From Breznakia blatticola (GTDB taxonomy: Bacteria > Bacillota_I > Bacilli_A > Erysipelotrichales > Erysipelotrichaceae), in assembly GCF_004365815.1 (NCBI RefSeq), contig NZ_SODD01000027.1, positions 898 to 32,897 of the forward strand: a DNA stretch of 32,000 nucleotides, in the 5' to 3' direction. How positions within the stretch are numbered: position 1 is the stretch's first letter; the number at the start of each line of letters is the position of its first letter. Shown here piece by piece: positions 5,867 through 24,801 of this stretch. Made by a program: the position numbers and the translations under genes. Under the pieces are notes generated by a model that saw only the letters and a list, made by a program, of their open reading frames with translations, was not told the origin of the DNA and ran no database searches.

Positions 5867-6007
5867 TTTCATACCTTCCAATTCATTTTTAACTACTGTT
5901 AATTTCCTTATGTAATTCCTTTGTTTTTATACATAAGGACTACGTTTTTATTATACGATAATTTCGATAAAAGTGGTAAAAATGCTTGTAAATGTTATAC
6001 TAAATAT

Positions 6008-6715
6008 ATGAAAACATTATTACTAGCTGGAGAAATCACAGATTTCTTAAATGAGTTGTTTAACATCATCGATATTGAAGACATATTTAGCTTGATCTTT
6101 TTTATCGTTGTAATGGTTGGAATTGTATCGAGTTCAAGCAAGAAAAAGAAACAACAGCAAATGAAATATCAAACGACTTATGTACCAAAGGAAATGAAAC
6201 GCCAAAATGTACAAGTGGATTTAACAAGCAAAAGAAAAAGTGCACCTAGAGAAAAAAGTAAAGGTGCTGAAAAGAAAGGGATTTTCGCTCAAATTGCACA
6301 GTCGATTCAAGCTGGAATTGAAGAAGCAAATGCTGAAGCAAACAAGAAAAAAGCGAGCTTATATAAACCAAATCAAAGAGTGCAAGTAGATGTGACAAAT
6401 CATCAAATTTCAGATGAGCAACAAGACTTATATGAAGAAAGAAATCAAGCATATGAAGTACGCAAGAGATTTGAAAAAAACCATGCAAAAGCAGATAAGC
6501 AAAGTATTTTAGATACAACTATGGATGCACACGAACAAAACGTTCTTGATGCAGAAACTGCATACACCGCTGCATATGATTCACGAATAAGTAATGAATA
6601 TCAAATGTTTGCTTGGGAACCTATTGTTCCTAAAGAAGCAATGGCTGCTGAGCCCGCAATAGAAGCAGAACCAGCACTATCCGTAGATGAAGAAAAAGGT
6701 TGGATTATTATTTAA
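6008..6715 (+). CDS. Hypothetical membrane-anchored, charged low-complexity protein
   Basis: The only credible plus-strand ORF. ATG at 6008 (MKTLLLAGEITDF...), one hydrophobic helix IFSLIFFIVVMVGIV followed by SSSSKKKKQQQ, and a K/E/Q/A-rich tail with internal repeat QNVQVDLT / QRVQVDVT. No obvious SD, so the start is uncertain. Confidence 0.45.
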   Translation: MKTLLLAGEITDFLNELFNIIDIEDIFSLIFFIVVMVGIVSSSSKKKKQQQMKYQTTYVPKEMKRQNVQVDLTSKRKSAPREKSKGAEKKGIFAQIAQSIQAGIEEANAEANKKKASLYKPNQRVQVDVTNHQISDEQQDLYEERNQAYEVRKRFEKNHAKADKQSILDTTMDAHEQNVLDAETAYTAAYDSRISNEYQMFAWEPIVPKEAMAAEPAIEAEPALSVDEEKGWIII

Positions 6716-6735
6716 TAATCCAGCCTTTTATTTTG
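6694..6735. terminator. Bidirectional rho-independent terminator between convergent genes
   Basis: AAAAGGTTGGATTATTA-TT-TAATAATCCAGCCTTTT forms a stem of about 17 bp with one G-U pair. Flanked by an A-tract and TTTTATTTTG. The plus-gene stop codon lies in the hairpin tip. Confidence 0.8.
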
Positions 6736-6741
6736 ATGATT

Positions 6742-7230
6742 CTACTTTGTGATTAAACCAACAGTTTCTTGATTTGTGACATCTGTTGTTTCATGAAGTT
6801 GAATCATAGCATCATCATCCATATTTGTCACAACTACAATGACAGTGGGGTCAATTTGTAATTGTTCCAACATCGCTAAGTCCATTTCGACTAGTGTTGT
6901 TGATGCCTTAACTTTTTGGTTTTCTTTAATGAATATTTCAAATGGTTTACCGTTTAAATCAACCGTATTGATACCAATGTGTAAAATGACTTCATCGCCA
7001 TTATCTGATAGGATTCCGATTGCGTGTTTCGTTGGAAAAATACTGATAATTTTTCCTGAAACCGGTGAGGTAATGGTTCCATTTTTAGGATACACCGCAT
7101 ATCCATCTCCCATCATTTTCTGAGAAAACATTGGATCATTGACATCTTCAATATGCATTAACTTTCCAGATGCAGGAGAATACAAAGTCGTCGTATCGCT
7201 TACATCTCTTTTTTTAAAAATTCTCATCAT
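6742..7230 (-). CDS. PTS glucose-family EIIA component (EIIA-Glc/Crr-like)
   Basis: 162-aa ORF with DPMFSQKMMGDG, FPTKHAIGI and VILHIGINTVDLNGKPF (the two conserved EIIA-Glc histidines). Start overlaps the upstream glucokinase stop. Confidence 0.88.
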   Translation of the reverse strand: MMRIFKKRDVSDTTTLYSPASGKLMHIEDVNDPMFSQKMMGDGYAVYPKNGTITSPVSGKIISIFPTKHAIGILSDNGDEVILHIGINTVDLNGKPFEIFIKENQKVKASTTLVEMDLAMLEQLQIDPTVIVVVTNMDDDAMIQLHETTDVTNQETVGLITK

Positions 7231-8200
7231 ACTTTGCTTCTCCTTGAATTACCATTTGTGCTGCACCTGTTATCCCAGCATCATTACCAAGTGTGGCAAG
7301 TTTTATATCTGTTGATTGTCGAACAAGTGGAAATGCTACTTTTTCAAACACGCTTACAATTTTATGAAGTAGTATATTTCCTGCCTGTGATACGCCACCA
7401 CCGATAATCACGCTTTCTGGGTTTACTATATTGGCAATATTTGCACAAGCGACTCCAAGATCGTACGTAATTACATCTACGCCCTTGCATGCGAGCTTGT
7501 CATTTTCTTTTACCAGATCAAACACGAGTTTCGCTGTTATTTCTTCATCATTTTCGATTGCTTTTTGAAGCTTTGAATCTTCCATAAATGTTTTACTTTC
7601 TACATATGCAACATTCACAATTCCAGTTGCACTTGCCACTGTTTCTAAACAGTTTTCATTACCACATGTACAAGTGAAACCATAATTTAAACTACTGTGT
7701 AAGTGCCCGATTTCTCCTGCACTATTTGCTGTTCCTGTAAGTATAGAATTGTTTATAACAACACCGCCACCGACTCCAGTACCTAGTGTAATAAATACGA
7801 TATTTGATGCATGACTTACACTTGCTTCCCCATACGCTGCACAGTTTGCATCATTGGTAAGATAAAGTGGCACATCTAAATCATATTGTTGGAATGTTTT
7901 ACGGATATCCTGTGTTTTTGCCCATCCAAGGTTAAATGCATTTTTTACAGTTCCCTCTTCTTGGCTAACCACTCCAGGTGCACCTATTCCAATCCCTAAT
8001 AGTTGTTTACTTGTATAGTTTTTGTCGACTAATGTTGAAAGGATTGACTTACACATATTTGGAACAATTTGTTTTCCTGCTTCGTTAGTGTCTGTTGGAA
8101 TTGTCCAAGTTTCTAAACAAGTTCCTTCACTTGTATACATTCCAAACTTCGTAGTTGTTCCACCTAAGTCAATTCCAATTACGATATCTTTTTCATTCAT
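7214..8200 (-). CDS. glcK: ROK family glucokinase
   Basis: IGIDLGGTTTKFG, GEIGH and zinc motif CTCGNENCLETVAS. ATG at 8200 (MNEKDIVIGIDLGG) is preferred over the GTG at 8227 from the ORF track. Overlaps the upstream gene by 8 nt. Confidence 0.85.
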   Translation of the reverse strand: MNEKDIVIGIDLGGTTTKFGMYTSEGTCLETWTIPTDTNEAGKQIVPNMCKSILSTLVDKNYTSKQLLGIGIGAPGVVSQEEGTVKNAFNLGWAKTQDIRKTFQQYDLDVPLYLTNDANCAAYGEASVSHASNIVFITLGTGVGGGVVINNSILTGTANSAGEIGHLHSSLNYGFTCTCGNENCLETVASATGIVNVAYVESKTFMEDSKLQKAIENDEEITAKLVFDLVKENDKLACKGVDVITYDLGVACANIANIVNPESVIIGGGVSQAGNILLHKIVSVFEKVAFPLVRQSTDIKLATLGNDAGITGAAQMVIQGEAKYDENF

Positions 8201-8840
8201 TGAATGCCACAACCTTTCCCACACCATTTTCGTAGGTAATCGTTGTCACACCAGAGTTTTTCAACTCTTGCTTTACAGGTATCGTTTCATCTACCATATG
8301 TACAATTGTACGAATAACATTACCGTGTGTTACAACCATCAATTTGCTATCATCTTGATGCTTGTTTAAGATCATTTCAAGTCCTTTATTTAGTCGTGAT
8401 TCTACTTCCTTTTGGGTTTCCGCTTCGTTTGCTTGATCCACATCTTTAATTGCTAAAGCTATTTCATCTAAACTCAACGTTGTAAAGATATCACGCACTT
8501 CTATATTTTTATTTTTTGCGACTTTGCCATACACATAGTCGCAAAAGCTACCATCCAGTGAGCCATAAAAGGTTTCACGGAATTCATACGTAGGGATGAT
8601 TTTTGTTTCATCCCTATATGTATTTTCTGCCAAAATAAGATTTGCAGTTCGTATGGTTCTGCCCAGATCGCTTGTATAAATTACATCAAATTTTTCATTT
8701 TCGAGACGTTTGCCTGTCGCAATTGCATCTTCTTCCCCTTTTTGTGTTAAAGGTGCATCAGACCAACCTTGCATTTTTTTGTATTTATTTAAATACGTTT
8801 CCCCGTGCCGAATAAAATAAATCGTTACTTTATTACCCAT
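8193..8840 (-). CDS. Histidine phosphatase superfamily protein (phosphoglycerate-mutase-like sugar phosphatase)
   Basis: 215-aa ORF with FIRHGETYLN, SDLGRTIRTA, RETFYGSLDG and VVTHGNVIRTIV (complete RHG...R...E...HG core). Confidence 0.82.
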   Translation of the reverse strand: MGNKVTIYFIRHGETYLNKYKKMQGWSDAPLTQKGEEDAIATGKRLENEKFDVIYTSDLGRTIRTANLILAENTYRDETKIIPTYEFRETFYGSLDGSFCDYVYGKVAKNKNIEVRDIFTTLSLDEIALAIKDVDQANEAETQKEVESRLNKGLEMILNKHQDDSKLMVVTHGNVIRTIVHMVDETIPVKQELKNSGVTTITYENGVGKVVAFNE

Positions 8841-8871
8841 TGTCTACACCATTTCCTTACTATTTGAAACC

Positions 8872-9858
8872 TTATTCACTTAATAATGTTTCCAATTGCT
8901 TAATTTGACGTTTTGTAAATTCTGTACCACCACAATATAATTCATCTTCATACTCACAAATTAAATATCCATCAAATGACGTTTCTTTAATTGCAGCAAT
9001 AATTTCTGGATATGGGATACTTGCTTCTACACAGTTTTCATCTAGGTAGTGGAATTTACAGTGCATCTCAAAGCAATATGGCATGATACGTTTCATACCT
9101 TCTAATAATGCAGGCAGTTGCTCTTTACTTTTGAATTGTACGAATCCATACATTCCTTGCAACACACCATTGATTGCAGGGTGTGCATTTGCTTCTGTAA
9201 GTTTTGCTCTTGCTTCTTCAATATCCACACCAGCATAGCGCATATCTGCAGCCATTTGTAAGTGTTCTTCTTTTACTCCAGCTTGAAGTGCTTTCATCCA
9301 TTGTGGTTTATTTGGTGCAATTGAGAAACATCCAAAGTCAGGAATAAATCCTAAATACTTTGATCCAGTCTTTTCAATCACTGCTAAGTATTCCATCATT
9401 TTTGGTGAAGTTGGTGTTTCTGGATTATGAATTTCGATACCAACATGCACATCATAAAGTTCAGCATATGGCGCCAAACGTTCAAATGCACTTGGTGATA
9501 ACATATATTGTGCACGCATCACCTTACACCCTAATGCATTTGCTGTTTTTAAATCAATGATTGTATCTGCAAGCATTTCATCATCACTTAAATCGCGATC
9601 ATGACGCATTCCACGATCGTTATTTGCTCCATAACTTACTGGACCAATTCCATACGTTTCTTTTAATCTAGTAACCAATCCAAGAAATTCATCACTTACA
9701 TTTGGATACGATGGTAACATTTGTGTCCCAACAATTTCATAACCAGTAGCTCCGGCAAGCGCTGCTTGTTTTACACATTCTTCAAAATCATATTCATATC
9801 GTGCATATTCTGTTCCATAACAGAATAAAGTAGCACCTATTTTCATATTTGTATTCAT
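8872..9858 (-). CDS. Xylose-isomerase-like TIM-barrel protein; candidate large (catalytic) subunit of a C-glycoside deglycosidase (DgpC/CarB-like)
   Basis: 328-aa ORF. E-D-H-E metal-site pattern typical of the fold: HVGIEIHN, FIPDFGCF, FEMHCKFHY, LICEYEDE. Sits 8 nt downstream of the DUF6379-like small subunit. Confidence 0.6.
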   Translation of the reverse strand: MNTNMKIGATLFCYGTEYARYEYDFEECVKQAALAGATGYEIVGTQMLPSYPNVSDEFLGLVTRLKETYGIGPVSYGANNDRGMRHDRDLSDDEMLADTIIDLKTANALGCKVMRAQYMLSPSAFERLAPYAELYDVHVGIEIHNPETPTSPKMMEYLAVIEKTGSKYLGFIPDFGCFSIAPNKPQWMKALQAGVKEEHLQMAADMRYAGVDIEEARAKLTEANAHPAINGVLQGMYGFVQFKSKEQLPALLEGMKRIMPYCFEMHCKFHYLDENCVEASIPYPEIIAAIKETSFDGYLICEYEDELYCGGTEFTKRQIKQLETLLSE

Positions 9859-9866
9859 CTTAGTTT

Positions 9867-10301
9867 CTACTCCTCTACACGTACATCAAGTACATCTCCA
9901 CTATCAAGAGGCATGTACATATGTCCCGGTCCTATATTCATATATGGAACACGTAACATTAATTTCAACTCAATTTTGTGGTTACCTTTTGCCAACCCAC
10001 CTTTTTTAATTACATGAATGGTTGCAGGTTCTACTTGACTCCAAAATTCAGTAATTGCATATTTTAATTTGTATACAGGAAGTTCCTTATTACGATATGC
10101 AAACGTAACTGCTTCTTGATCAACTTTTTCTCCATCGATATACACTTCAAGTAGATCGATATCAGAAAGATAATGACCTCTATAATATCCTAGTTGTACA
10201 TCAAAGCTAAATCCATTGCGTTTATTATTGATATACATGTCTTTGAAGGAATCTTTTTTTATAATCTCTTCATTTAATTGCATTCTCATTGCAAAAGCCA
10301 T
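9867..10301 (-). CDS. DUF6379-like small protein; candidate C-glycoside deglycosidase beta subunit (DgpB/CarC-like)
   Basis: 144-aa ORF. NGFSFDVQLGYYRGHYLSDIDLLEVYIDGEKV and KKGGLAKGNHKIELKLMLRVPYM match, from memory, the G-F-x-F...YYRG-x-x-LS...V-DGE-x-V and GGL-x-x-G-x-H-x-L-E-L...R-[IV]-x-Y pattern of DgpB/CarC-type subunits. Strong RBS GGGGGAAAG. Confidence 0.55.
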   Translation of the reverse strand: MAFAMRMQLNEEIIKKDSFKDMYINNKRNGFSFDVQLGYYRGHYLSDIDLLEVYIDGEKVDQEAVTFAYRNKELPVYKLKYAITEFWSQVEPATIHVIKKGGLAKGNHKIELKLMLRVPYMNIGPGHMYMPLDSGDVLDVRVEE

Positions 10302-10312
10302 GTTCTTTCCCC

Positions 10313-11416
10313 CTAAAATTTAATCTCTTTATTTTCAGCTGCTGATTTATAAATTGCATCTAATACTTTTGTAACTGCTAAAGCTTCTTCTGGTTTTACT
10401 AGTGGTTCTGTTCCATTTACAACAGCTTCTAACCATTGTTTTGCATCGATGGTACCTTCTTCACCACCACCGCCACCGAAGTATGCGACACCACCAACAG
10501 GTGATAATGTTTCTTCCATTAATTGGTTGTTTTTTCCACGGTTATAGATCAATTCATTTTTTCCATAACTCATTCCTGAGTGAATTTCTGCACCAGCTTT
10601 TGTACCACAAAGTGTAGTTGATGCTTCTCTTGATTCAAGAATATTTAAAGCCCAGCTTGCTTCAAGGTTAATTGTTGCTCCATTTTTCATCTTAATGAAT
10701 CCCATGGCTGAATCTTCAACTTCATATGTTTTTGGATCCCATGGTCCAAATAGGTTTCCTTCTGTTGCTTGTTCTAATCCACCAAGCTTATAAAACACAG
10801 ATCCATTTACACTATCTACATCATAGTTATTCATACACCATAAAGTTATATCCAATGCATGTGTTCCAATATCAATTAATGGTCCCCCACCTTGTGCTTC
10901 TTTGTCCATGAATACTCCCCATGTAGGTACTCCTCTACGACGTACTGCATGTGCTTTTCCATAATAGATATCTCCAAGTTCACCATCTGCACATGATGCA
11001 TGTAAGTTTTGAACTTCTGGACGGAAACGGTTTTGGTATCCAACCGTAAACTGCATTCCTGATTTCTTCCAAGCTTCTACCATTTTCTCTGCTTCTGTAC
11101 TGCTGTGTGACATTGGTTTTTCACAGTACACGTGTTTTTTTGCATCAAATGATGCAATTGCAATCTCACTATGCGACACATTTGGTGTACAAATGTGCAC
11201 TACATCTACATCAGGGTTTTGCAACACTTCATGATAATCTGTTGTCACTTGTGCGCCTTTGATTCCAAATTCATTTGCGGCTTTTATTGCACGCTCTTCA
11301 ATTAGGTCACAAAATGCAACCATTTCACATAAATCTGCATTTTTTTTCAGTGCCGGGAATTGTTTTTGATTAGCAATTCCTCCACATCCAATAATCGCTA
11401 CTCTTAACTTTTTCAT
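10313..11416 (-). CDS. Gfo/Idh/MocA family NAD(P)-dependent oxidoreductase (DgpA-like candidate glycoside 3-oxidoreductase)
   Basis: 367-aa ORF with Rossmann N-terminus LRVAIIGCGGIANQ, the EKPM motif (VYCEKPMS) and a typical C-terminal alpha/beta domain. Immediately upstream of the two-subunit lyase candidate. Confidence 0.75.
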   Translation of the reverse strand: MKKLRVAIIGCGGIANQKQFPALKKNADLCEMVAFCDLIEERAIKAANEFGIKGAQVTTDYHEVLQNPDVDVVHICTPNVSHSEIAIASFDAKKHVYCEKPMSHSSTEAEKMVEAWKKSGMQFTVGYQNRFRPEVQNLHASCADGELGDIYYGKAHAVRRRGVPTWGVFMDKEAQGGGPLIDIGTHALDITLWCMNNYDVDSVNGSVFYKLGGLEQATEGNLFGPWDPKTYEVEDSAMGFIKMKNGATINLEASWALNILESREASTTLCGTKAGAEIHSGMSYGKNELIYNRGKNNQLMEETLSPVGGVAYFGGGGGEEGTIDAKQWLEAVVNGTEPLVKPEEALAVTKVLDAIYKSAAENKEIKF

Positions 11417-11434
11417 ATATTTGACCTCTTCTTT

Positions 11435-12349
11435 CTATATCACAAAGTTTCTTAAATATTTCGTACTAATTGCGACTGCCTTCTTGGCATCATCATATGT
11501 TTTTTCAAACGCCTTATCTTCTACCTCAATACATGTATATCCATTAAATCCAATATCCGTTAATGCAGATACATATTCTGCCCAATCTACATCTCCAAGT
11601 CCTGGTACTTTTGGTGCCATGTATTCAAGTGGCGTTGCCATAACTCCGACATCTTTTAGTTTTTCTTGATACACTTTAATATCTTTATAGTGCACATGAT
11701 AGATGCGATCCTTAAATTCGTATAACGGTGCAATGTAATCAATTTGTTGCCAAATAAAGTGTGATGGATCATAGTTGATTCCTAAACGTTTACTAGGCAA
11801 TAATTCAAATACTTTTCGCCAGTTAGCTGGTGAAGTCATTAAATTTTGACCTCCTGGCCATTCATCATTTGTAAATAACATCGGACAATTTTCAATTGCA
11901 ATATTTACATCATTTGCTTCAGCTACATCTAATATTGGCTGCCAAATACCAACTACATCTTTTAGATTTTCGTCAACGGATTTTTTTGAATCCCGACCGA
12001 TAAATGTTGTTACTGTTTTTACACCATAAGCATTAGCTGCTTTAATTACTTGTTTTAAGTGTTTAGTATAATACTCACGTTTACTTACATCTGGATCCAT
12101 CGTATTTGGATAATATGCAAGTGCTGAGATTTCAACACCCTTTTGCATACAATAATCCAAATTTTCTTGAATCGTTTTCTCACTTAAGTCATATACATCA
12201 ATGTGCGAAACTCCTGCATATCGTCTTTCCGCTTTTCCCTTTGGCCAACATGCAACTTCTACACACTCCAATCCGTTCATTGCGACAATATCGATCATTT
12301 CTTTGAAATCACTTTGATCTAAAATCGCACTTACTAATCCTAATTTCAT
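11435..12349 (-). CDS. Sugar phosphate isomerase/epimerase family TIM-barrel protein (second copy)
   Basis: 304-aa ORF. NIAIENCP, NYDPSHF, YHVHYKD and CIEVED give an E-D-H-E pattern of the xylose-isomerase-like fold. Confidence 0.75.
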   Translation of the reverse strand: MKLGLVSAILDQSDFKEMIDIVAMNGLECVEVACWPKGKAERRYAGVSHIDVYDLSEKTIQENLDYCMQKGVEISALAYYPNTMDPDVSKREYYTKHLKQVIKAANAYGVKTVTTFIGRDSKKSVDENLKDVVGIWQPILDVAEANDVNIAIENCPMLFTNDEWPGGQNLMTSPANWRKVFELLPSKRLGINYDPSHFIWQQIDYIAPLYEFKDRIYHVHYKDIKVYQEKLKDVGVMATPLEYMAPKVPGLGDVDWAEYVSALTDIGFNGYTCIEVEDKAFEKTYDDAKKAVAISTKYLRNFVI

Positions 12350-12358
12350 ACTATCTCC

Positions 12359-13411
12359 TTACTTCTCAAATAAAATTGCTTGATTTGTTTCACTTGATTT
12401 CCAAGCCGCTTCCATAATCGCTAGTACACGACGTACCTCTTCATGTTTTACAAGTTGTTCTTCTTTACCATTTACTACATTTACAAAGTTTTGATAGAAA
12501 TCTGTCCAGTCCGTTTCTACAGTTGGTAATTCTTCTGAATATAGTGCCCCTGCAGGTTGTGGTGCAAATTGACGTGTAGGACCAGCTACTGTTTCTGCAA
12601 TTTGTGCAGGCAGTTTGTCTAACAATTCACTTGTTCGCCATATTTCTCCATCACAAGCAAATGTATTAATTTTTAAAGTCCCTCGATTTCCTGCCACCAA
12701 CCAACGCGGTTGATAATTCAAGACATAGGTTCCTAGTTCAATATGATATGTAATCCCATTATCGAATTTTAAAAGTATTTTAAAGTAATCATCTACTTCA
12801 TAATTAATGATGCTTTTTAAATCAGCAAATACACTTAGAACTTTTGCGCCTTTCATCATTTGGCATGCTTGGTCGATTAAATGAACTCCCCAATCGTATA
12901 GCATTCCACCACCGTATTTTTTATATAGGTGCCATTCATGAATTCTTCCATTTGCTGTATGAAGTTTTGATTCAATCGTGAAAATATCACCAATCATATG
13001 TTCTTCATAAACTTTTTTTGCAATTCGAAAATCACGATCCCAACGTCTGTTTTGATGTACCATCATCGTTACGTTGTTGTTTTCTACCGCTTTTACCATT
13101 TCGTCGTATTCTGCAGTATTTAATGCTGCTGGTTTTTCATCAATAATATGTTTTCCAGCATTTGCAGCTTTTATCACCATTTCTTTATGTAAGTGATTTG
13201 GAACTGTAATCAATACTGTATTTACTTCTGGATTCGCTAATAAATCCTCGACATCTTTGTATGCTGGATATCCCAAATCAATTGCTTCTTGACGCTTTGT
13301 ATCATCAATCTCACATACTGCGACAATTTCTACTCCCTTCACTCGAGTAGCATTTTGTTCGTGCCATTTACCCATGCCACCAAAACCAATGATTCCTAAT
13401 TTAACGTTCAT
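12359..13411 (-). CDS. Gfo/Idh/MocA family oxidoreductase (second copy), first gene of the operon
   Basis: 350-aa ORF with KLGIIGFGGMGKWH and IIDEKPAA (EKP motif). RBS GAGG. Confidence 0.8.
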   Translation of the reverse strand: MNVKLGIIGFGGMGKWHEQNATRVKGVEIVAVCEIDDTKRQEAIDLGYPAYKDVEDLLANPEVNTVLITVPNHLHKEMVIKAANAGKHIIDEKPAALNTAEYDEMVKAVENNNVTMMVHQNRRWDRDFRIAKKVYEEHMIGDIFTIESKLHTANGRIHEWHLYKKYGGGMLYDWGVHLIDQACQMMKGAKVLSVFADLKSIINYEVDDYFKILLKFDNGITYHIELGTYVLNYQPRWLVAGNRGTLKINTFACDGEIWRTSELLDKLPAQIAETVAGPTRQFAPQPAGALYSEELPTVETDWTDFYQNFVNVVNGKEEQLVKHEEVRRVLAIMEAAWKSSETNQAILFEK

Positions 13412-13519
13412 ATGTTTAACCTCATCTTTTCTATCTTTATTTTACGAAGATTGGGACATTTCATCTTCCCGTTTTTTATCGCGAAGTTGATGATTTACAT
13501 CCTTGTTTTCCATTGAAAA

Positions 13520-13558
13520 TAAAAAAAAGACAAAATTTGTGATACATTTTTTGTCTTT
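13520..13558 (-). terminator. Rho-independent terminator after the AraC-family gene
   Basis: Minus strand reads AAGACAAAA-(11 nt)-TTTTGTCTT followed by TTTTTTTATTTTC. It begins right at the stop codon. Confidence 0.7.
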
Positions 13559-15877
13559 CTAATTCTTTATTAATCCACAATACATTGTAGATATTTGGTT
13601 TGGTGCTAAATCAATATCAACTGTCAAAATTTCATTGGTAACATGAACCTTTTTAATCATAAGATCTGGACTCGATTTTCTTGCTAGATGATCAATATCC
13701 ATACCAGTTACAAAGTTCACATAATCCCATTTCTTCCACTCATCAATTAGACTTCCGCTCGTTGTACTGATGGTAAACATTCGTACTTCATATTCTCCAT
13801 TTGTTACACCTTCTAAGTGAAACCGGAACGATTTTGATTCATTATGGAAGAGCTGATTAATATCATTCACATGGATTTTATCTTTTTTAATATACATGGA
13901 AGGTTCGATATGACAGTAGTTGTTACACAGAATTCCAATATCATATCCTTCATCAATTGTCGCAATATAATTTGCATTTTTACCAATCACTTCACTACGC
14001 AAATGATGATAAAACTTATATCCGTAAAATGCAGGTTTGTAGATACCTTGTCGATTCAATAGCCCATATGAACCATTGAGTAATTCGTTGGTATTTTTTG
14101 CATCTATAACCACATCACACATAACATCATAAGCAATCTCATCCACTTCATCAGAAATACTTTGTAGACTTCGCACAACGTATGCTCCTTTAAAGCACGT
14201 ATCATTAACATAGTCTGGATATATTTTCGAGTAATTCCATGAAGTTACATATAGTGGTAAATCTTGGTATTTTGTTTGCTTAAGTTGCTTTTTTACTTCT
14301 GCTACATCATTTGCTAATTTATCGTTATTTCCAATGTCCTTTAATTTCGTTTGTGAATCAATCGTATAACTATGCATGGTGATGAAATCAAATACTACAT
14401 TTTGTTTCTCTAGTTTTTCAAATACATCATTATTCGCATAACCCACTTCAAATCCCACACCACCAATTTTAAAGTTATTACTATAACTTTTTAGCAACAT
14501 GAATATTGCTTTATATAGTTTTGCATAACGCGAGCTATTTAAGTTACTTTGATTACTTAATTCAAAACGATACTTCCCGACATTCACAATCATAAATTGA
14601 TTGATCAAAAACGACATGAATTTACGTAGTACTTCTTTGTATATATCAAGGTATTGTTCAAACATATCTGCATCTTGATCATTTACTTGATACTTTGCAA
14701 ATGCAGGTGTTTCAAGTTCAATCATGACAGGAATATTATTTCGAATAAGAAAATTGAAAACGTTTTGGATTTTGTCATAATCTAAAAATACTTCATCATT
14801 TTCGATGGATACAATATTTTCACTAAAGATATCAATGATTCGAAACGATTCAATTCGCAATGATTTCCGCGTTTTCAACAACTGTTCTTGCACTTGAAAT
14901 TCAAGCAACTTATGCGCTGGTCCAACATTCATCATTTTGGTAACTTGAAGACGTTGCGGTTTATGTTTTCTTACATCTAGTGTAATCTCCTCATGCATCG
15001 TTTTATTTTTATATTCATAGTTGAACTCTTTTAACTGTTCAACAACTTTCTCATTTTGGTCTATTGCTAGTTCTGCTTTATGTTCTTCTTGATATTGTTG
15101 ACGATATAAAGAAGGTGTTGTTTTGTATGCTTCCTTGAATGATTTATTAAATGCAGTGGTACTAGCAAATCCATGATCCACTGCTATTTGTGTAATATTT
15201 TTATCCGTTAGTTCTACATCTTCAATCGCTTTCATTAACCTCACTTGATTAATAAAATCAATGAAATTCTTTCCTGTCTCTTGCTTAAAGTATCTAGAGA
15301 AATAAGAAGAAGACATATAGAAGTGAGAAGCGATATCATCTAAGGATAAGCGTATATTATAGTTTGTATAAATATATTTTAAAATACTTTCCAATCGTGT
15401 ATCATAATCATCACTTTCAAGTTCCATATGATAATTTGTGACTAGCACATCAAGAAATTGAAATCCTAATTCAAAATACTTATAAGGAAACTTCTTATCA
15501 TTACTTGCGAATGTTGATATTAAGTGATGCATTGTATCGCGCAACATGGAATGATTTAGTGCGGTATTTTTTACAGAGTTACAATCAAAGCGAATGGTAT
15601 TGTTTTGTAAGGAATCGCGCAATACGTATAATGGAATGACAATTTCACAAACCATTAATTCTTTACTTTGACTATGAATCTCAAAATTTTCTCCATAGTT
15701 AACAAGTAAGAAATCATCCTTCATCAATGTGAATGATTCTTCTTGCTTATCAATAACTAGTGATCCAAAGACGACATAGAAAAACACAACACTTAATTCA
15801 TGTCGTTTGTAGTCATTTACATCTGTTAGAATTTGAAATCCACTTTTTGAATCGAAGCTATTGAATATATTGTACAT
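13559..15877 (-). CDS. AraC/XylS family transcriptional regulator fused to a C-terminal GH39-like (beta-xylosidase-like) domain lacking both catalytic glutamates
   Basis: 772-aa ORF. N-terminal cupin-like region. AraC HTH at about residues 160-260 (LSLDDIASHFYMSSSYFSRYFKQETGKNFIDFINQVRLMKA...IAVDHGFASTTAFNKSFKEAYKTTPSLYR). Residues from about 300 to 772 resemble GH39: RFELSNQSN, KIGGVGF, VFDFITMHSYT, LPLYVTSWNYS, YGLLNRQGIYKPAFYGYKF. Confidence 0.8.
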   Translation of the reverse strand: MYNIFNSFDSKSGFQILTDVNDYKRHELSVVFFYVVFGSLVIDKQEESFTLMKDDFLLVNYGENFEIHSQSKELMVCEIVIPLYVLRDSLQNNTIRFDCNSVKNTALNHSMLRDTMHHLISTFASNDKKFPYKYFELGFQFLDVLVTNYHMELESDDYDTRLESILKYIYTNYNIRLSLDDIASHFYMSSSYFSRYFKQETGKNFIDFINQVRLMKAIEDVELTDKNITQIAVDHGFASTTAFNKSFKEAYKTTPSLYRQQYQEEHKAELAIDQNEKVVEQLKEFNYEYKNKTMHEEITLDVRKHKPQRLQVTKMMNVGPAHKLLEFQVQEQLLKTRKSLRIESFRIIDIFSENIVSIENDEVFLDYDKIQNVFNFLIRNNIPVMIELETPAFAKYQVNDQDADMFEQYLDIYKEVLRKFMSFLINQFMIVNVGKYRFELSNQSNLNSSRYAKLYKAIFMLLKSYSNNFKIGGVGFEVGYANNDVFEKLEKQNVVFDFITMHSYTIDSQTKLKDIGNNDKLANDVAEVKKQLKQTKYQDLPLYVTSWNYSKIYPDYVNDTCFKGAYVVRSLQSISDEVDEIAYDVMCDVVIDAKNTNELLNGSYGLLNRQGIYKPAFYGYKFYHHLRSEVIGKNANYIATIDEGYDIGILCNNYCHIEPSMYIKKDKIHVNDINQLFHNESKSFRFHLEGVTNGEYEVRMFTISTTSGSLIDEWKKWDYVNFVTGMDIDHLARKSSPDLMIKKVHVTNEILTVDIDLAPNQISTMYCGLIKN

Positions 15878-15904: not shown

Positions 15905-15940
15905 CTAAAATGGAAAAGGTGAAAGTTTTTCTTTCACCTG
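15905..15940 (-). terminator. Rho-independent terminator after PTS EIIBC
   Basis: Minus strand reads AGGTGAAAG-AAAAA-CTTTCACCT followed by TTTCCATTTTAG. Confidence 0.7.
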
Positions 15941-15951
15941 ATCGATTTGTA

Positions 15952-17334
15952 TTATACTTTTAATTTCTTTTCGACACTTTCGCTCCAACCAAACATGTAC
16001 GTTAAACCAAAAGCTAAGACTAATGAAGCAACTGCTCCTAATAATGCTCCATAGAATCCCATGTCAATTCCTGCTGGATTAATAAGTGCTGGAATACCTA
16101 AGATTCCTGTACCAAATGTATATCCTTTTCCACCAAGTAGTGAAGCAATTAATCCTCCAAGTGCTCCTCCTGCTAAACCAAAGATAAATGGTTTTCTTGC
16201 TGGAACATTAATACCAAATAATGCTGGTTCTGTAATTCCAAATAATCCAGATACTGCTGAACCTACACAAACTTGTGTAACGGCTTTGTTTTTTGAACGC
16301 AATCCGAATCCAAGTACTGCTCCAGTTTGTCCCATTGCAGAAGCAAAGAACACGATCGCAATTAATGGACAATATCCCATTGCTGCAAGATTTGCAATAA
16401 AGATTGATGAGAATGCTTTACTTACTCCAAATAAAACAAGTAGTTGCCAAATTCCACCTACAAGTACTCCAGTGATTAATGGACTAAATGCATACAATGC
16501 TTGAATTGCATCAGTAATGAATGACATTACTGCAGTTAATACAGGCCCAATAATTAAGAATGCAAGTGGTGTTACTACACACAATACAATCATTGGCACA
16601 AAAATCATCTTTAAAATATCTGGAACGATTTTTCTAGCAAACTTCTCAACGATTGCTGCCAAATATGTTGATAAAATAATTGGGAATACCGTTTTTGAAT
16701 AATTAACTAATGTTAATGGAAGAGCAAACAATGTTAACTGTTGTCCTTCATTTACCGCATTAATGATTTCAGGTGTGATCATTGCACATGCGATAATCAT
16801 TGCATAGAATGGTTTTCCACCGAATTTCTTAGCTGATGTATATGCTAAGAAGATCGGGAAGTAATAGAAGATTGCATTACTAATTGCATATAGCACTAGA
16901 TATGATCCACTCGTTGGATCTAACCATTTCAACATTACAAATAATGATAAGAACCCTTGTAGTGTACCACTTGCTGCTAACACACCAACGATAGGTACAA
17001 AGATTGCCGAAGCAATATCCGTAATTTTATCAAGCAATGAAGCATTTTTATCTGTCTCTGAAGATACTTCTACTTCACCTCCAGCTTTTGCTGGATATAT
17101 TTTAGCTGCTTCTTCATAGTAACTAGATACTGCATTACCAATCACTACTTGCAATTGTCCACCAGCATCGATGATTCCCATTACACCATCAGCTTTTGCA
17201 AGTTCTTCATCATTCACTTTCTTACGATCAACTAAAATAAATCGTAGTCGCGTAAAGCAATGACTAAATGATTGCACATTATCAATACCACCAACTAAAT
17301 CGATTATTGTTTTTACATTTTCTTTTACACTCAT
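15952..17334 (-). CDS. PTS glucose/beta-glucoside-family EIIBC component (no EIIA domain)
   Basis: EIIB motif FSHCFTRLRF (phosphorylatable Cys), polytopic EIIC with LFGITEPALFGINV. ATG at 17334 is preceded by AAAGAGGAGA; the GTG at 17385 from the ORF track has no RBS. Confidence 0.85.
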   Translation of the reverse strand: MSVKENVKTIIDLVGGIDNVQSFSHCFTRLRFILVDRKKVNDEELAKADGVMGIIDAGGQLQVVIGNAVSSYYEEAAKIYPAKAGGEVEVSSETDKNASLLDKITDIASAIFVPIVGVLAASGTLQGFLSLFVMLKWLDPTSGSYLVLYAISNAIFYYFPIFLAYTSAKKFGGKPFYAMIIACAMITPEIINAVNEGQQLTLFALPLTLVNYSKTVFPIILSTYLAAIVEKFARKIVPDILKMIFVPMIVLCVVTPLAFLIIGPVLTAVMSFITDAIQALYAFSPLITGVLVGGIWQLLVLFGVSKAFSSIFIANLAAMGYCPLIAIVFFASAMGQTGAVLGFGLRSKNKAVTQVCVGSAVSGLFGITEPALFGINVPARKPFIFGLAGGALGGLIASLLGGKGYTFGTGILGIPALINPAGIDMGFYGALLGAVASLVLAFGLTYMFGWSESVEKKLKV

Positions 17335-17419
17335 ATTATCTCTCCTCTTTGTGAAATCAAGTTTGTCTAATTTGTTTTCTAACACACTGATACTTATGTT
17401 GAATCAAGACCTCCTTTTG

Positions 17420-17433
17420 TGTAAGCGCATACA
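17420..17433. promoter_or_regulatory. Candidate cre (CcpA) catabolite-responsive element upstream of PTS EIIBC
   Basis: TGTAAGCGCATACA fits the relaxed cre consensus WTGNAANCGNWNNCW. Lies about 90 nt upstream of the EIIBC start. Confidence 0.45.
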
Positions 17434-18728: not shown

Positions 18729-18740
18729 AATCCTCCTTTA

Positions 18741-18768
18741 GAAAAAAGGTAGGTTGACCTACCCTTTT
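18741..18768 (-). terminator. Intra-operon intrinsic terminator/attenuator between dhaL and the HAD gene
   Basis: Minus strand reads AAAAGGGTAGG-TCAA-CCTACCTTTTTTC. The dhaL TAG stop is inside the stem and the HAD RBS starts 3 nt after the T-tract. Confidence 0.55.
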
Positions 18769-19376: not shown

Positions 19377-19384
19377 ATTGCCTC

Positions 19385-20395: not shown

Positions 20396-20402
20396 ATAGA
20401 AC

Positions 20403-21065: not shown

Positions 21066-21073
21066 AGTTCCTC

Positions 21074-23137: not shown

Positions 23138-23156
23138 CCTTACCCCCTGTTTCTAT

Positions 23157-24152: not shown

Positions 24153-24164
24153 ACTATAACCCAC

Positions 24165-24800: not shown

Positions 24801-24801
24801 A

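What the first reader, a model, noticed from the sequence alone, without database searches (positions are those of the whole stretch)
6742..13411. Glycoside-hydrolase-free 'oxidise then cleave' operon with a DgpB/CarC-like small subunit: candidate C-glycoside deglycosidase pathway
**Seen in the sequence.**
- Eight co-directional genes have gaps of 31 nt or less, or overlaps. In order: Gfo/Idh/MocA, TIM-barrel isomerase, Gfo/Idh/MocA, a 144-aa protein, TIM barrel, histidine phosphatase, ROK glucokinase, EIIA-Glc.
- No recognisable glycoside hydrolase is present.
- The 144-aa ORF (GFSFDVQLGYYRGHYLSDIDLLEVYIDGEKV ... GGLAKGNHKIELKLMLRVPYM) looks like the small beta-subunit family (DUF6379).
- The following 328-aa TIM barrel has an E-D-H-E metal pattern.

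**Established knowledge.** Bacterial C-glycoside deglycosidases (DgpB-DgpC of gut strain PUE, CarB-CarC of soil bacteria) are two-subunit metal-dependent lyases. They pair a xylose-isomerase-like TIM barrel with a small subunit of about 140 aa. They act on 3-keto-glycosides made by a Gfo/Idh/MocA oxidoreductase (DgpA) or a flavoenzyme (CarA).

**Inference.**
- This operon encodes such a C-C (or oxidative O-/S-) deglycosylation route.
- The extra oxidoreductase and TIM-barrel pair (11435-13411) probably recycles the keto/ene-sugar product back to glucose.
- The substrate is unknown. Diet-derived flavonoid or xanthone C-glucosides are the obvious guess.
Basis: partly seen in the sequence, partly recalled or inferred. 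Interest (0 to 1): 0.8.

Follow-up and report, generated by a model that had tools for sequence, protein, structure and literature searches.

The report
PTS-linked C-glycoside deglycosylation (dgp) operon
This cockroach-gut bacterium carries a clear relative of the known gut-bacterial dgp operon, which strips the sugar off plant C-glycosides by oxidising it and then cleaving the C-C bond; here it is wired to a PTS sugar importer plus a dedicated phosphatase instead of the usual symporter.

Summary

- **Source.** The window is from Breznakia blatticola (Erysipelotrichaceae, cockroach gut).
- **Core enzymes.** On the minus strand, 6742-13411 holds eight tightly packed genes. The 144-aa ORF hits Pfam CGDB (C-glycoside deglycosidase beta subunit, formerly DUF6379) at E = 2e-34. 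It is 55% identical to a solved DgpB (9m3a), as is the 328-aa TIM barrel to DgpC. The TIM barrel keeps all seven metal/catalytic residues. The 367-aa oxidoreductase is 81% identical to DgpA of strain PUE.
- **Accessory genes.** The other oxidoreductase, TIM barrel and ROK kinase, plus the upstream AraC/dead-GH39 regulator, match dgpF, G, H and E of the published dgpA-H operon.
- **What differs.** The MFS symporter (dgpD) is replaced by a beta-glucoside-type PTS (EIIBC upstream, EIIA downstream) plus a histidine phosphatase. In related loci this phosphatase always accompanies the PTS (3 of 3) and never the symporter (0 of 30).
- **Same layout elsewhere.** It occurs in Enterococcus, including the operon that encodes the crystallised W974-1 DgpBC.

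Verdict: a new member of a known kind. The one open point is modestly interesting: a probable import-phosphorylate-dephosphorylate bypass.

The parts
15952..17385 (-). PTS EIIBC, beta-glucoside (Bgl) family; the probable importer. The EIIB phospho-cysteine motif CFTRLR is at residue 43.
   Evidence: - Pfam PTS_EIIB and PTS_EIIC.
- TIGR01995 beta-glucoside PTS, E = 4e-138 over the BC part.
- Motif position.
- 81% identical and syntenic in Breznakia pachnodae (L001), and 54% identical in the Enterococcus operon (L083).
17420..17433 (.). cre-like palindrome (TGTATGCGCTTACA on the coding strand), just upstream of the EIIBC ribosome-binding site. This is only a hint of catabolite control.
   Evidence: One mismatch to the cre consensus (sequence). 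The window holds 3 such matches against 4.9 expected by chance, so only its position is suggestive.
15917..15939 (-). Terminator-like hairpin between the EIIBC gene and the regulator gene.
   Evidence: 9-pair stem followed by a T-run.
13559..15877 (-). AraC-type regulator fused to a catalytically dead GH39-like domain, probably a ligand sensor; counterpart of dgpE.
   Evidence: - Pfam HTH_18/HTH_AraC plus Glyco_hydro_39.
- Weak match to the AryK family.
- The GH39 acid/base and nucleophile glutamates read SNQSN (441) and VTSWN (544).
- A homologue flanks most dgp loci.
13508..13550 (-). AT-rich hairpin with a T-run after the regulator gene. The 147-nt gap that follows should hold the promoter of the eight-gene operon.
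   Evidence: Sequence read directly: AAGACAAAA...TTTTGTCTTTTTTTT. The consensus scan did not report it.
12359..13411 (-). Gfo/Idh/MocA oxidoreductase (350 aa), counterpart of dgpF. Candidate 3-keto-glucose reductase, or a second glycoside 3-oxidase.
   Evidence: - Pfam.
- EKP motif at 92 and DWGVH at 173.
- PDB 9m37 'P581a DgpA2' with isoorientin, E = 8e-100.
- 59-72% homologues sit next to the TIM304 gene in about 25 loci.
11435..12349 (-). Xylose-isomerase-like TIM barrel (304 aa), counterpart of dgpG. Candidate 2-hydroxy-3-keto-glucal hydratase.
   Evidence: - Pfam AP_endonuc_2.
- Profile against PDB: 2zds 6e-22, AtHYD 8ro4 3e-8, IolE 1e-7; the O-glycoside eliminase is not hit.
- AF2 model pLDDT 82.
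- Foldseek: AtHYD is the best characterised hit, E = 3e-16, TM 0.77.
10313..11416 (-). DgpA: NAD(H)-dependent glycoside 3''-oxidoreductase.
   Evidence: - PDB 7xr9 DgpA, E = 5e-205.
- 81% identity to PUE DgpA.
- Glucose-pocket residues K100, R159, W166, D182, H186, F223 and E264 are all conserved.
9867..10301 (-). DgpB: beta subunit of the C-glycoside deglycosidase.
   Evidence: - Pfam CGDB PF19906, E = 2.3e-34.
- PDB 9m3a_B 2.5e-46, DgpB 7bvr_B 1.5e-25, DfgB, AgCarC2.
- 55% identity to W974-1 DgpB and 38% to PUE DgpB.
8872..9858 (-). DgpC: Mn2+-dependent alpha subunit (TIM barrel with lid) of the C-glycoside deglycosidase.
   Evidence: - PDB 9m3a_A 1e-119, DgpC 7bvr_A 2e-98, AgCGD2 alpha 7dnm_A 3e-36.
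- E142, H144, D174, H266, K268, E302 and E304 align with AgCGD2 E147, H149, D179, H269, K271, E305 and E307.
8193..8840 (-). Histidine phosphatase (branch 1). Inferred phosphatase for the 6''-phosphate of the PTS-imported glycoside.
   Evidence: - Pfam His_Phos_1.
- RHG at 11, SDLGR at 57, THG at 171.
- PDB 3r7a 9e-28 and PhoE 3e-20.
- Always adjacent to, or clustered with, a PTS EIIBC gene in homologous loci.
7214..8227 (-). ROK glucokinase, counterpart of dgpH. Traps the released glucose as glucose-6-phosphate.
   Evidence: - TIGR00744 ROK glucokinase family, 279.8 bits against a cut-off of 260.
- DLGGT at 20 and the CxCGxxxC zinc motif at 186.
- No HTH domain, so it is a kinase and not a repressor.
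6742..7230 (-). PTS EIIA of the glucose/beta-glucoside class, partner of the upstream EIIBC.
   Evidence: - Pfam PTS_EIIA_1, E = 6e-49.
- TIGR00830 above its cut-off.
- Histidine motifs HAIG at 69 and HIGINT at 84.
6694..6729 (.). Bidirectional intrinsic terminator that closes the operon and the convergent ORF 5921-6715.
   Evidence: 16-pair hairpin flanked by an A-run and a T-run.

Best explanation
The locus is a dgp-type operon for oxidative, non-hydrolytic removal of glucose from aryl C-glucosides, and possibly from other hydrolysis-resistant aryl beta-glucosides.

**Steps supported by close homology to characterised enzymes.**
- DgpA (367 aa) oxidises the 3''-OH of the glucosyl group, using its tightly bound NAD(H).
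- The DgpB/DgpC heteromer (144 aa plus 328 aa, Mn2+) abstracts H-2'' through His144 and beta-eliminates the aglycone.
- This releases 2-hydroxy-3-keto-glucal (1,5-anhydro-D-erythro-hex-1-en-3-ulose).

**Steps that are inferred.**
- The substrate enters through a Bgl-type PTS (EIIBC 15952-17385 plus EIIA 6742-7230) and so arrives as the 6''-phosphate.
- The histidine phosphatase removes that phosphate, so that enzymes built for unphosphorylated glycosides can act.
- The 304-aa TIM barrel hydrates the glucal to 3-keto-glucose.
- DgpA (in ping-pong mode) and/or the 350-aa oxidoreductase reduces 3-keto-glucose to glucose.
- The ROK kinase makes glucose-6-phosphate.
- The AraC regulator senses the glycoside through its dead GH39-like domain and activates the operon.

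Overall, this is the published dgpA-H gene set with the MFS symporter (dgpD) swapped for PTS plus phosphatase.
For: **Core enzymes.**
- CGDB profile hit at 2.3e-34.
- Full-length matches to the solved DgpB/DgpC, DfgA/B and CarB/C complexes.
- All seven catalytic/metal residues named by Mori et al. 2021 (PMC8563793) are conserved.
- DgpA is 81% identical to PUE DgpA, and all sugar-pocket residues from He et al. 2022 (PMC9939296) are conserved.

**Equivalence to the published operon.**
- Loci with DgpABC 96-98% identical to PUE (L041, L028) have the order A, B, C, MFS, AraC-GH39, Gfo, TIM, ROK.
- That fits the published description of eight genes dgpA-H with A and F being Gfo/Idh/MocA.
- The window has homologues of every one of these except the MFS.

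**PTS-phosphatase coupling.**
- Among 80 loci sampled only through DgpA, 3 have this PTS and all 3 have the phosphatase. 30 have the MFS_2 symporter and none has it.
- The three PTS loci come from three different families.
- The Enterococcus operon has the same ten genes.
- Phosphatase homologues down to 37% identity are still next to a PTS EIIBC gene.
- A Listeria cluster with a PTS carries an unrelated HAD sugar phosphatase in the same place.
- The same DgpBC subclade (65-81% identity) occurs with either transporter type, so only the uptake module is swapped.
- The ROK glucokinase is present in both types, which implies that free glucose is the end product.

**Hydratase role.** AtHYD is the closest characterised relative of the 304-aa barrel by profile and by fold. 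The literature proposes oxidation, elimination, hydration and reduction for the PUE operon (PMC10628242).

**Precedent and physiology.**
- A PTS followed by a dedicated phosphatase is known from E. faecalis MalT/MapP (Mokhtari 2013, cited).
- C-deglycosylation in Enterococcus is repressed by glucose and starch (PMC6537369).
Against: - Nothing here is experimental.
- DgpB and DgpC are only 38-55% and 46-55% identical to characterised enzymes.
- Two positions implicated in PUE's substrate selectivity differ (Y303-alpha is E306 here, L7-beta is M7), so the substrate is unknown. DgpABC also cleaves O-glycosides in vitro.
- Dephosphorylating and then re-phosphorylating costs two high-energy phosphates per glucose.
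- The phosphatase's substrate is inferred from gene context only. Its closest solved relatives are uncharacterised or broad-specificity enzymes.
- The 350-aa oxidoreductase is strongly similar (E = 8e-100, full-length match) to a DgpA2 crystallised with isoorientin, so it may be a second glycoside oxidase and not a 3-keto-glucose reductase.
- The Listeria cluster has the 304-aa barrel and ROK but no oxidoreductase or CGD at all. A pure 'glucal hydratase' role does not obviously explain that.
- The EIIBC gene is separated from the operon by the regulator gene and a terminator-like hairpin.
- The cre-like site is not above chance.
Confidence: 0.8

Rival explanations
1. The operon's physiological substrates are aryl O- or S-beta-glucosides (arbutin-, salicin- or flavonoid-O-glucoside-like). 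They would be taken up by the Bgl-type PTS and cleaved oxidatively. C-glycosides would be at most a side activity.
For: - The transporter belongs to the beta-glucoside PTS family.
- DgpABC of PUE cleaves daidzin and genistin, and PuCGE cleaves 3-keto-phlorizin.
- DgpA homologues oxidise many O-glycosides (abstract of PMC11239390).
- The specificity-linked residues differ from PUE.
Against: - Several related loci carry a separate PTS plus a GH1 6-phospho-beta-glucosidase right next to the dgp genes (L083, L054, L085, L087). That is the cheap route for O-glucosides, which suggests the dgp set handles what GH1 cannot.
- The CGDB/DgpC pair is the only enzyme class known to cleave C-glucosides, and it is retained intact.
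- The Enterococcus operon with this same layout encodes the DgpBC that was crystallised, and Enterococcus isolates deglycosylate flavone C-glycosides.
Confidence: 0.2
2. The pathway runs on phosphorylated intermediates throughout, in the manner of GH4. DgpA and DgpBC would act on the 6''-phospho-glycoside. The histidine phosphatase would act late, or on another phospho-sugar, or would dephosphorylate a PTS protein (a SixA-like role) to tune uptake.
For: - GH4 enzymes use the same NAD+/Mn2+ oxidation-elimination chemistry on PTS-derived 6-phospho-glycosides (introduction of PMC9939296).
- There is a weak NCBIfam hit of the phosphatase to SixA, E = 6e-5.
- No direct evidence exists for the phosphatase's substrate.
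Against: - DgpA's glucose pocket is residue-for-residue the same as in PUE DgpA, where all hydroxyls except O1 are hydrogen-bonded. PUE-type loci use an MFS symporter and have no phosphatase.
- A glucokinase is conserved in the PTS-type operons. It would be pointless if glucose-6-phosphate were produced directly.
- In Listeria the phosphatase slot is filled by a HAD Cof/S6PP-type enzyme, a sugar-phosphate phosphatase family and not a protein phosphatase family.
Confidence: 0.12
3. The Gfo350/TIM304 pair is not a recycling module. It would be an independent oxidise-and-eliminate O-glycosidase like DfgC/DfgD, so the operon would hold two parallel deglycosylation systems.
For: - DfgCD is reported to deglycosylate flavonoid O-glucosides (PMC11170127; PMC8398226).
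- Gfo350 is strongly similar to a glycoside-binding DgpA2.
- The pair is a conserved module that moves as a unit.
Against: - I could not obtain the DfgC/DfgD sequences, so homology to them is untested.
- By profile and by fold, TIM304 is closer to the hydratase AtHYD and the dehydratase IolE than to any eliminase. The O-glycoside eliminase did not appear in the profile search.
- The TIM304 gene is nearly always next to, or near, the ROK glucokinase gene, which fits a late, sugar-salvage step.
Confidence: 0.15

Closest known systems
dgpA-H operon of human gut strain PUE (Dorea-related; GenBank LC422372; Nakamura et al.)
   Same: - Homologues of dgpA (81% identity), dgpB (38%) and dgpC (46%).
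- Homologues also of the AraC/GH39-like regulator, the second Gfo oxidoreductase, the second TIM barrel and the ROK kinase.
- The same proposed chemistry: oxidation, beta-elimination, hydration, reduction.
   Different: - Gene order differs: F-G-A-B-C here, against A-B-C-D-E-F-G-H.
- The MFS_2 symporter (dgpD position, inferred from the 96-98% identical loci L041/L028) is absent. It is replaced by PTS EIIBC, EIIA and a histidine phosphatase.
- The DgpBC subclade is different, and the specificity-linked residues differ.
Enterococcus operon encoding the W974-1 DgpB/DgpC (PDB 9m3a; its TIM304 homologue is annotated Enterococcus avium); PDB 9m3d is DgpA1 of the same strain
   Same: - Identical ten-gene content, and identical order for the eight-gene core: Gfo, TIM, DgpA, DgpB, DgpC, His_Phos, ROK, EIIA.
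- It also has the regulator and an EIIBC gene.
- The 9m3a chains are 100% identical to the proteins encoded at L083.
   Different: - Identity is only 44-72% for the enzymes, phosphatase and PTS components (63% DgpA, 55% DgpB/C, 52% phosphatase) and 24% for the regulator.
- EIIBC lies downstream there and upstream here.
- The host is a human-gut Enterococcus, against an insect-gut Erysipelotrichaceae here.
DfgABCDE of Eubacterium cellulosolvens and CarABC of soil Microbacterium/Arthrobacter
   Same: A two-subunit Mn2+ lyase (TIM barrel plus CGDB beta-sandwich) that acts on 3-keto-C-glycosides. The catalytic His/Glu and the metal ligands are the same.
   Different: - Much lower identity (DfgB 2.6e-13, AgCarC2 2.5e-5).
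- DfgA lacks the lid domain.
- Car systems use a flavoenzyme oxidase (CarA), not a Gfo/Idh/MocA enzyme.
Agrobacterium tumefaciens GlycDH / AtOGE / AtHYD / Gfo operon (Bitter et al. 2023) and the Bacillus smithii levoglucosan operon
   Same: - The same four-step logic.
- The window's 304-aa barrel is closest, among characterised proteins, to AtHYD (2-hydroxy-3-keto-glucal hydratase, PDB 8ro4).
   Different: - Only about 19% identity to AtHYD.
- The eliminase there is a single-subunit O-glycoside eliminase unrelated in sequence to DgpBC.
- The first oxidase there (GlycDH) is a different enzyme from DgpA.
MalT / MapP maltose route of Enterococcus faecalis (Mokhtari et al. 2013)
   Same: A PTS imports and phosphorylates a glycoside. 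A dedicated phosphatase then removes the phosphate, so that a downstream enzyme that needs the unphosphorylated sugar can act.
   Different: - The phosphatase family and the substrate are different.
- This is an analogy of logic only. No homology was tested here.
- The histidine phosphatase's substrate in this operon is inferred, not shown.
GH4 6-phospho-glycosidases
   Same: They act downstream of a PTS and use NAD+/Mn2+ oxidation at C3 followed by elimination.
   Different: - A single polypeptide acting on 6-phospho-O-glycosides. They are not known to cleave C-glycosides.
- No GH4 or GH1 gene is present in this operon.

Membership tests
C-glycoside deglycosidase (DgpBC / CarBC / DfgAB) | Small beta subunit of the CGDB (PF19906, ex-DUF6379) family | tested here: met
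   E = 2.3e-34, 118 bits against a cut-off of 27.6, covering 111 of 112 profile positions. PDB DgpB, DfgB, CarC2 and 9m3a_B all match.
C-glycoside deglycosidase (DgpBC / CarBC / DfgAB) | Alpha subunit: a xylose-isomerase-like TIM barrel homologous to DgpC, encoded next to the beta subunit | tested here: met
   9m3a_A 1e-119, DgpC 2e-98 and AgCGD2 alpha 3e-36, all full length. The two genes are 8 nt apart.
C-glycoside deglycosidase (DgpBC / CarBC / DfgAB) | Mn2+ ligands (Glu, Asp, His, Lys, Glu), the catalytic base His and its partner Glu | tested here: met
   E142, D174, H266, K268 and E302, plus H144 and E304. These align with AgCGD2 E147, D179, H269, K271, E305, H149 and E307.
C-glycoside deglycosidase (DgpBC / CarBC / DfgAB) | Formation of an alpha-beta heterocomplex | not testable with these tools
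   No multimer prediction is available. It is inferred from 55% identity of both subunits to the solved 9m3a complex.
C-glycoside deglycosidase (DgpBC / CarBC / DfgAB) | Cleavage of the C-C bond of a 3''-keto-C-glycoside | not testable with these tools
   This needs an enzyme assay.
DgpA-type glycoside 3-oxidoreductase | Gfo/Idh/MocA fold with the DgpA sugar pocket (K100, R159, W166, D182, H186, F223, E264) | tested here: met
   7xr9, E = 5e-205, 81% identity. All seven residues are conserved at the same positions.
dgpA-H operon (strain PUE type) | Homologues of A, B, C, the regulator (E), the second Gfo (F), the second TIM barrel (G) and ROK (H) in one cluster | tested here: met
   The PUE order was inferred from L041/L028, whose DgpABC are 96-98% identical to PUE's.
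dgpA-H operon (strain PUE type) | MFS_2 (GPH-type) symporter as the cluster's transporter (dgpD position) | tested here: not met
   No MFS_2 homologue is in the cluster. A PTS EIIBC, an EIIA and a histidine phosphatase are present instead.
Beta-glucoside (Bgl) PTS | EIIB Cys motif, EIIC domain and a glucose-class EIIA with the phospho-His motifs | tested here: met
   - CFTRLR at 43; HAIG and HIGINT in EIIA.
- TIGR01995, E = 4e-138 for the BC part and 8.5e-47 for the A part. Both score below the cut-off of the fused IIABC model because the domains are split between two genes.
- Substrate specificity is not testable here.
Histidine phosphatase superfamily, branch 1 | RHG phospho-acceptor motif, second catalytic His, conserved Arg | tested here: met
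   RHG at 11, SDLGR at 57 and THG at 171. Pfam E = 9e-35. It reaches no equivalog-level NCBIfam cut-off, so its substrate is unassigned.
2-hydroxy-3-keto-glucal hydratase (AtHYD) | Specific sequence and structural similarity to AtHYD (PDB 8ro4) | tested here: inconclusive
   AtHYD is the best characterised hit by profile (3e-8) and by fold (3e-16, TM 0.77). However, identity is only 19%, generic epimerases score within about 100-fold, and the top hit (2zds) is uncharacterised.
Glycoside hydrolase family 39 | Catalytic acid/base Glu (E160) and nucleophile Glu (E277), XynB numbering recalled from the literature | tested here: not met
   The regulator's GH39-like domain has Q and S at these positions (alignment to 1px8). 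It should not be filed as a glycosidase.

The most novel reading that the evidence does not exclude
In bacteria that depend on PTS uptake, the dgp pathway has been re-plumbed. C-glycosides would be imported and 6''-phosphorylated by a Bgl-type PTS, then immediately dephosphorylated by a small, dedicated clade of histidine phosphatases. In Listeria-type clusters a HAD enzyme would do the same job.

This would define a previously unrecognised 'glycoside-6-phosphate phosphatase' function. It would be a general import-phosphorylate-dephosphorylate bypass for glycosides that phospho-glycosidases cannot cleave.

The clade is found next to a PTS EIIBC gene in at least five families of Bacillota, including clusters that carry an uncharacterised 850-890-aa protein in place of the oxidoreductases.
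Probability: 0.5. Interest if true: 0.55.

Novelty: new member of a known kind. Interest (0 to 1): 0.35.

Why it matters
C-glycosides such as puerarin, vitexin, orientin and mangiferin resist ordinary glycosidases, so their bioactivation depends on this enzyme system.

- **New host range.** Finding an intact, fully equipped copy in a cockroach-gut Erysipelotrichaceae extends the known hosts beyond human-gut Lachnospiraceae and Enterococcus and soil Actinobacteria. The genome annotation labels these genes only generically.
- **Useful lead.** The uptake side is the more useful part. The strict pairing of PTS with a phosphatase gives a concrete, testable role for two genes that would otherwise be read as unrelated housekeeping genes. 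It also shows how an operon built for unphosphorylated substrates can be transplanted into PTS-dependent bacteria.
- **Accessory genes.** The comparison supports functional assignments for the uncharacterised accessory genes dgpE-H: dead-GH39 sensor regulator, reductase, hydratase, glucokinase.

Tried and rejected
- **Literature on the new structures.** Searches for W974-1, P581a, DgpA2 and '2-hydroxy-3-keto-glucal hydratase' found nothing in the held library. What the depositors of 9m3a, 9m3d, 9m37 and 8ro4 say about accessory genes is therefore unknown to me.
- **dgpD-H.** A search for these names found only a statement that they are uncharacterised.
- **Upstream HAD phosphatase.** I asked whether the gene at 17727-18728 belongs to the system, since HAD genes recur in the Listeria, Trichococcus and S. 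suis clusters. It is only 23-25% identical to those and is co-oriented 30 nt after a DhaL gene, so I rejected it as part of the upstream dihydroxyacetone-kinase operon.
- **RNA elements.** I looked for a riboswitch or RAT-type antiterminator. Rfam found nothing at gathering thresholds.
- **Catabolite control.** One well-placed cre-like site exists, but the count is below the chance expectation, so I do not claim it.
- **The GH39-like domain.** I considered that it made the 'hydrolase-free' description wrong. I rejected that because both catalytic glutamates are lost.
- **One look-up failed.** P0287 was not on record.

Full report
**Observation.** ORF listing shows eight co-directional minus-strand genes between 6742 and 13411. 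In transcription order the gaps are 9, 18, 11, 8, 31, -35 and -17 nt.

Profile scans give these assignments, in the same order:
- Gfo/Idh/MocA oxidoreductase (350 aa)
- xylose-isomerase-like TIM barrel (304 aa)
- Gfo/Idh/MocA oxidoreductase (367 aa)
- CGDB, the Pfam 'C-glycoside deglycosidase beta subunit' family, formerly DUF6379 (144 aa; E = 2.3e-34)
- xylose-isomerase-like TIM barrel (328 aa)
- histidine phosphatase (215 aa)
- ROK glucokinase (337 aa; above the TIGR00744 cut-off)
- PTS EIIA of the glucose class (162 aa)

A bidirectional terminator hairpin at 6694-6729 closes the operon.

**Identity of the core.** Comparison with solved structures is unambiguous.
- The 367-aa protein matches DgpA of strain PUE at E = 5e-205, with 81% identity.
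- The 144-aa protein matches 9m3a_B (2.5e-46), DgpB (1.5e-25), DfgB and AgCarC2.
- The 328-aa protein matches 9m3a_A (1e-119), DgpC (2e-98) and AgCGD2-alpha (3e-36).

Mori et al. 2021 (PMC8563793) define the Mn2+ ligands (E147, D179, H269, K271, E305), the catalytic base (H149) and its partner (E307) in AgCGD2. All seven align with identical residues here: E142, D174, H266, K268, E302, H144 and E304.

He et al. 2022 (PMC9939296) define the glucose pocket of DgpA. K100, R159, W166, D182, H186, F223 and E264 are all conserved at the same positions.

Both match the 9m3a enzyme. Substrate range therefore cannot be read from the sequence.

**Host and relatives.** The 304-, 350- and 215-aa proteins are 100% identical to Breznakia blatticola proteins on a 32.9-kb contig, where they are annotated only generically.

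A scan of species-representative genomes with DgpA found 376 relatives. The best is Breznakia pachnodae (91%), with complete synteny.

An exhaustive search with the beta subunit found 288 cluster representatives at E <= 1e-3. The family is established but modest in size.

**Relation to the published operon.** The literature describes an eight-gene operon, dgpA-H, in strain PUE, with DgpA and DgpF both Gfo/Idh/MocA and D-H uncharacterised.

Two fetched loci (L041 [Ruminococcus] faecis and L028) encode DgpA/B/C that are 96-98% identical to PUE's. Their order is DgpA, DgpB, DgpC, MFS_2 symporter, AraC/GH39-like regulator, Gfo (63% identical to the window's 350-aa protein), TIM barrel (64% to the 304-aa protein), ROK. 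That is eight genes with the sixth a Gfo enzyme.

The window has counterparts of all of these except the symporter.

The regulator's GH39-like domain has lost both catalytic glutamates: the WNEPN motif reads SNQSN and ITEYN reads VTSWN, against 1px8. It is best read as a ligand sensor, and the 'hydrolase-free' description stands.

**What is different: the uptake module.** Upstream of the regulator lies a beta-glucoside-family PTS EIIBC gene (15952-17385; TIGR01995 E = 4e-138). Its EIIA partner and a histidine phosphatase sit at the operon's 3' end.

- Among the 80 loci sampled only through DgpA, 3 carry this PTS and all 3 carry the phosphatase. These are L001 (Erysipelotrichaceae), L033 (Lachnospiraceae) and L054 (Lactovum). 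30 loci carry the MFS_2 symporter and none has the phosphatase.
- An Enterococcus locus (its TIM304 homologue is annotated E. avium), reached through the 304-aa protein, has the same ten genes and the same order for the eight-gene core. The crystallised 'W974-1' DgpB/DgpC (PDB 9m3a) is 100% identical to the proteins encoded there.
- Phosphatase homologues at 48%, 44% and 37% identity (Galacturonibacter, Trichococcus, Streptococcus suis) are still directly next to, or one gene away from, a PTS EIIBC gene in clusters with the AraC/GH39-like regulator. The link is lost only at the family's edge, in Weissella.
- A Listeria monocytogenes cluster has regulator, PTS EIIABC, a HAD Cof/S6PP-type phosphatase, the 304-aa barrel (72% identity) and ROK. 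An unrelated sugar-phosphatase family fills the same slot.
- The same DgpBC subclade (65-81% identical to the window's) occurs with either transporter type.

Taken together, the most economical reading runs as follows. The PTS delivers the glycoside as its 6''-phosphate. The phosphatase removes the phosphate. The unchanged DgpA/DgpBC machinery then acts on the free glycoside, as it does in symporter-type operons. This is inference from gene context.

Two further observations support it. The ROK glucokinase is kept in both operon types. DgpA's sugar pocket is identical to PUE's.

There is a precedent of the same logic in the MalT/MapP maltose route of E. faecalis (Mokhtari et al. 2013, cited). 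Glucose and starch repress C-deglycosylation in Enterococcus (PMC6537369), which fits a catabolite-controlled PTS operon. The cre-like site at 17420-17433 is well placed but is not statistically distinguishable from chance.

For the 304-aa barrel:
- A 17-sequence profile hits an uncharacterised Streptomyces protein (2zds, 6e-22), then the A. tumefaciens 2-hydroxy-3-keto-glucal hydratase AtHYD (8ro4, 3e-8) and inosose dehydratase IolE (1e-7). It does not hit the O-glycoside eliminase.
- An AlphaFold model (pLDDT 82) gives the same ranking by fold: 2zds 3e-19, AtHYD 3e-16 with TM 0.77, then generic epimerases near 1e-13.
- Bitter et al. 2023 (PMC10628242) describe the PUE, Agrobacterium and levoglucosan operons as analogous oxidation-elimination-hydration-reduction pathways.

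The hydratase assignment is therefore reasonable but rests on 19% identity.

For the 350-aa oxidoreductase:
- Homologues at 59-72% identity sit next to the 304-aa barrel gene in about 25 loci.
- A second group, at 44-51% identity, sits next to divergent CGD pairs.
- 'P581a DgpA2', crystallised with isoorientin, matches it strongly (E = 8e-100).
- It could therefore be a 3-keto-glucose reductase, a priming glucose or glycoside 3-oxidase, or both.

DgpA itself uses 3-keto-glucose as hydride acceptor, so a separate reductase is not strictly required.

The Listeria cluster has the barrel and ROK but no oxidoreductase or CGD. It remains unexplained.

**Novelty and verdict.** It describes a new member of an already characterised system, with a named Pfam family, several crystal structures and a published operon. 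The same PTS-linked layout exists in the Enterococcus operon that encodes a crystallised DgpBC.

The part that appears not to be discussed in the literature I could search is the obligate PTS-phosphatase pairing, together with the assignments for dgpE-H. These are context-based hypotheses that can be tested directly.

I put confidence in the core assignment at about 0.9, the PTS-phosphatase bypass at about 0.55, and the hydratase role at about 0.5.

Noticed in passing
L085:5321-7990 and L087:10126-12672: An 848-889-aa protein with no Pfam domain sits between the PTS EIIBC gene and the histidine phosphatase or CGD genes. The two copies are 40% identical, and the only hit is a sub-threshold one to GH106 (E = 5.7e-4). 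The clusters that carry it lack any Gfo/Idh/MocA oxidoreductase. It may be an unrecognised enzyme of glycoside breakdown.
   Followed up: partly
L081:3586-10920 (Listeria monocytogenes): A reduced cluster: AraC/GH39-like regulator, PTS EIIABC, HAD Cof/S6PP-type phosphatase, a 72%-identical copy of the 304-aa TIM barrel, and ROK. It has no oxidoreductase and no CGD subunits. What it metabolises is unclear, and it does not fit a simple 'glucal hydratase only' role for the barrel.
   Followed up: partly
window 17727-26172 (minus strand): A second sugar operon lies upstream. It holds a galactitol/ascorbate-type PTS EIIC, two DhaK/DhaL (dihydroxyacetone kinase) pairs, a class II aldolase, a PRD/Mga-type regulator with an EIIA2 domain, and a 333-aa HAD phosphatase. 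It is unrelated to the dgp system.
   Followed up: partly
window 5921-6715 (+): A 264-aa ORF convergent with the operon has no Pfam hit. It has a hydrophobic N-terminal stretch and a long Lys/Glu/Gln-rich tail, and it shares the bidirectional terminator at 6694-6729.
   Followed up: no
L003, L022, L037, L045, L048, L050, L051, L065, L072, L079, L080 (Gfo350 homologues at 44-47%): The 350-aa oxidoreductase family is bimodal. One group is 59-91% identical and sits next to the 304-aa barrel gene. The other is 44-51% identical and usually sits next to divergent DgpB/DgpC-like pairs (24-36% identity), which suggests a DgpF-type versus DgpA2/DfgE-type split.
   Followed up: partly
L011, L016, L017, L023, L029, L040, L054, L058: The window's DgpB/DgpC belong to a subclade 65-81% identical to them. 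It occurs in Faecalicatena faecalis, Butyricicoccus pullicaecorum, Clostridium sp., Streptococcus caprae and Lactovum. Its nearest structurally characterised member is only 55% identical, so its substrate range is unexplored.
   Followed up: partly
L004, L012, L060: Records titled Parabacteroides distasonis, Prevotella sp. and Odoribacter splanchnicus carry Firmicutes-like dgp loci with DgpA 73-88% identical to the window's. These are probably mis-binned contigs, and less likely recent transfer into Bacteroidota.
   Followed up: no
L083:16337-18915, L054:15504-18319, L085:8778-14534, L087:1-3893: A second cluster of AraC/GH39-like regulator, PTS and GH1 6-phospho-beta-glucosidase often lies directly beside the PTS-type dgp or phosphatase cluster. 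This suggests paired systems for hydrolysable and non-hydrolysable beta-glucosides.
   Followed up: no
window 13508-13550 (minus strand): An AT-rich hairpin with a T-run (AAGACAAAA...TTTTGTCTTTTTTTT) follows the regulator gene. The consensus terminator scan missed it because its stem has few G-C pairs.
   Followed up: no
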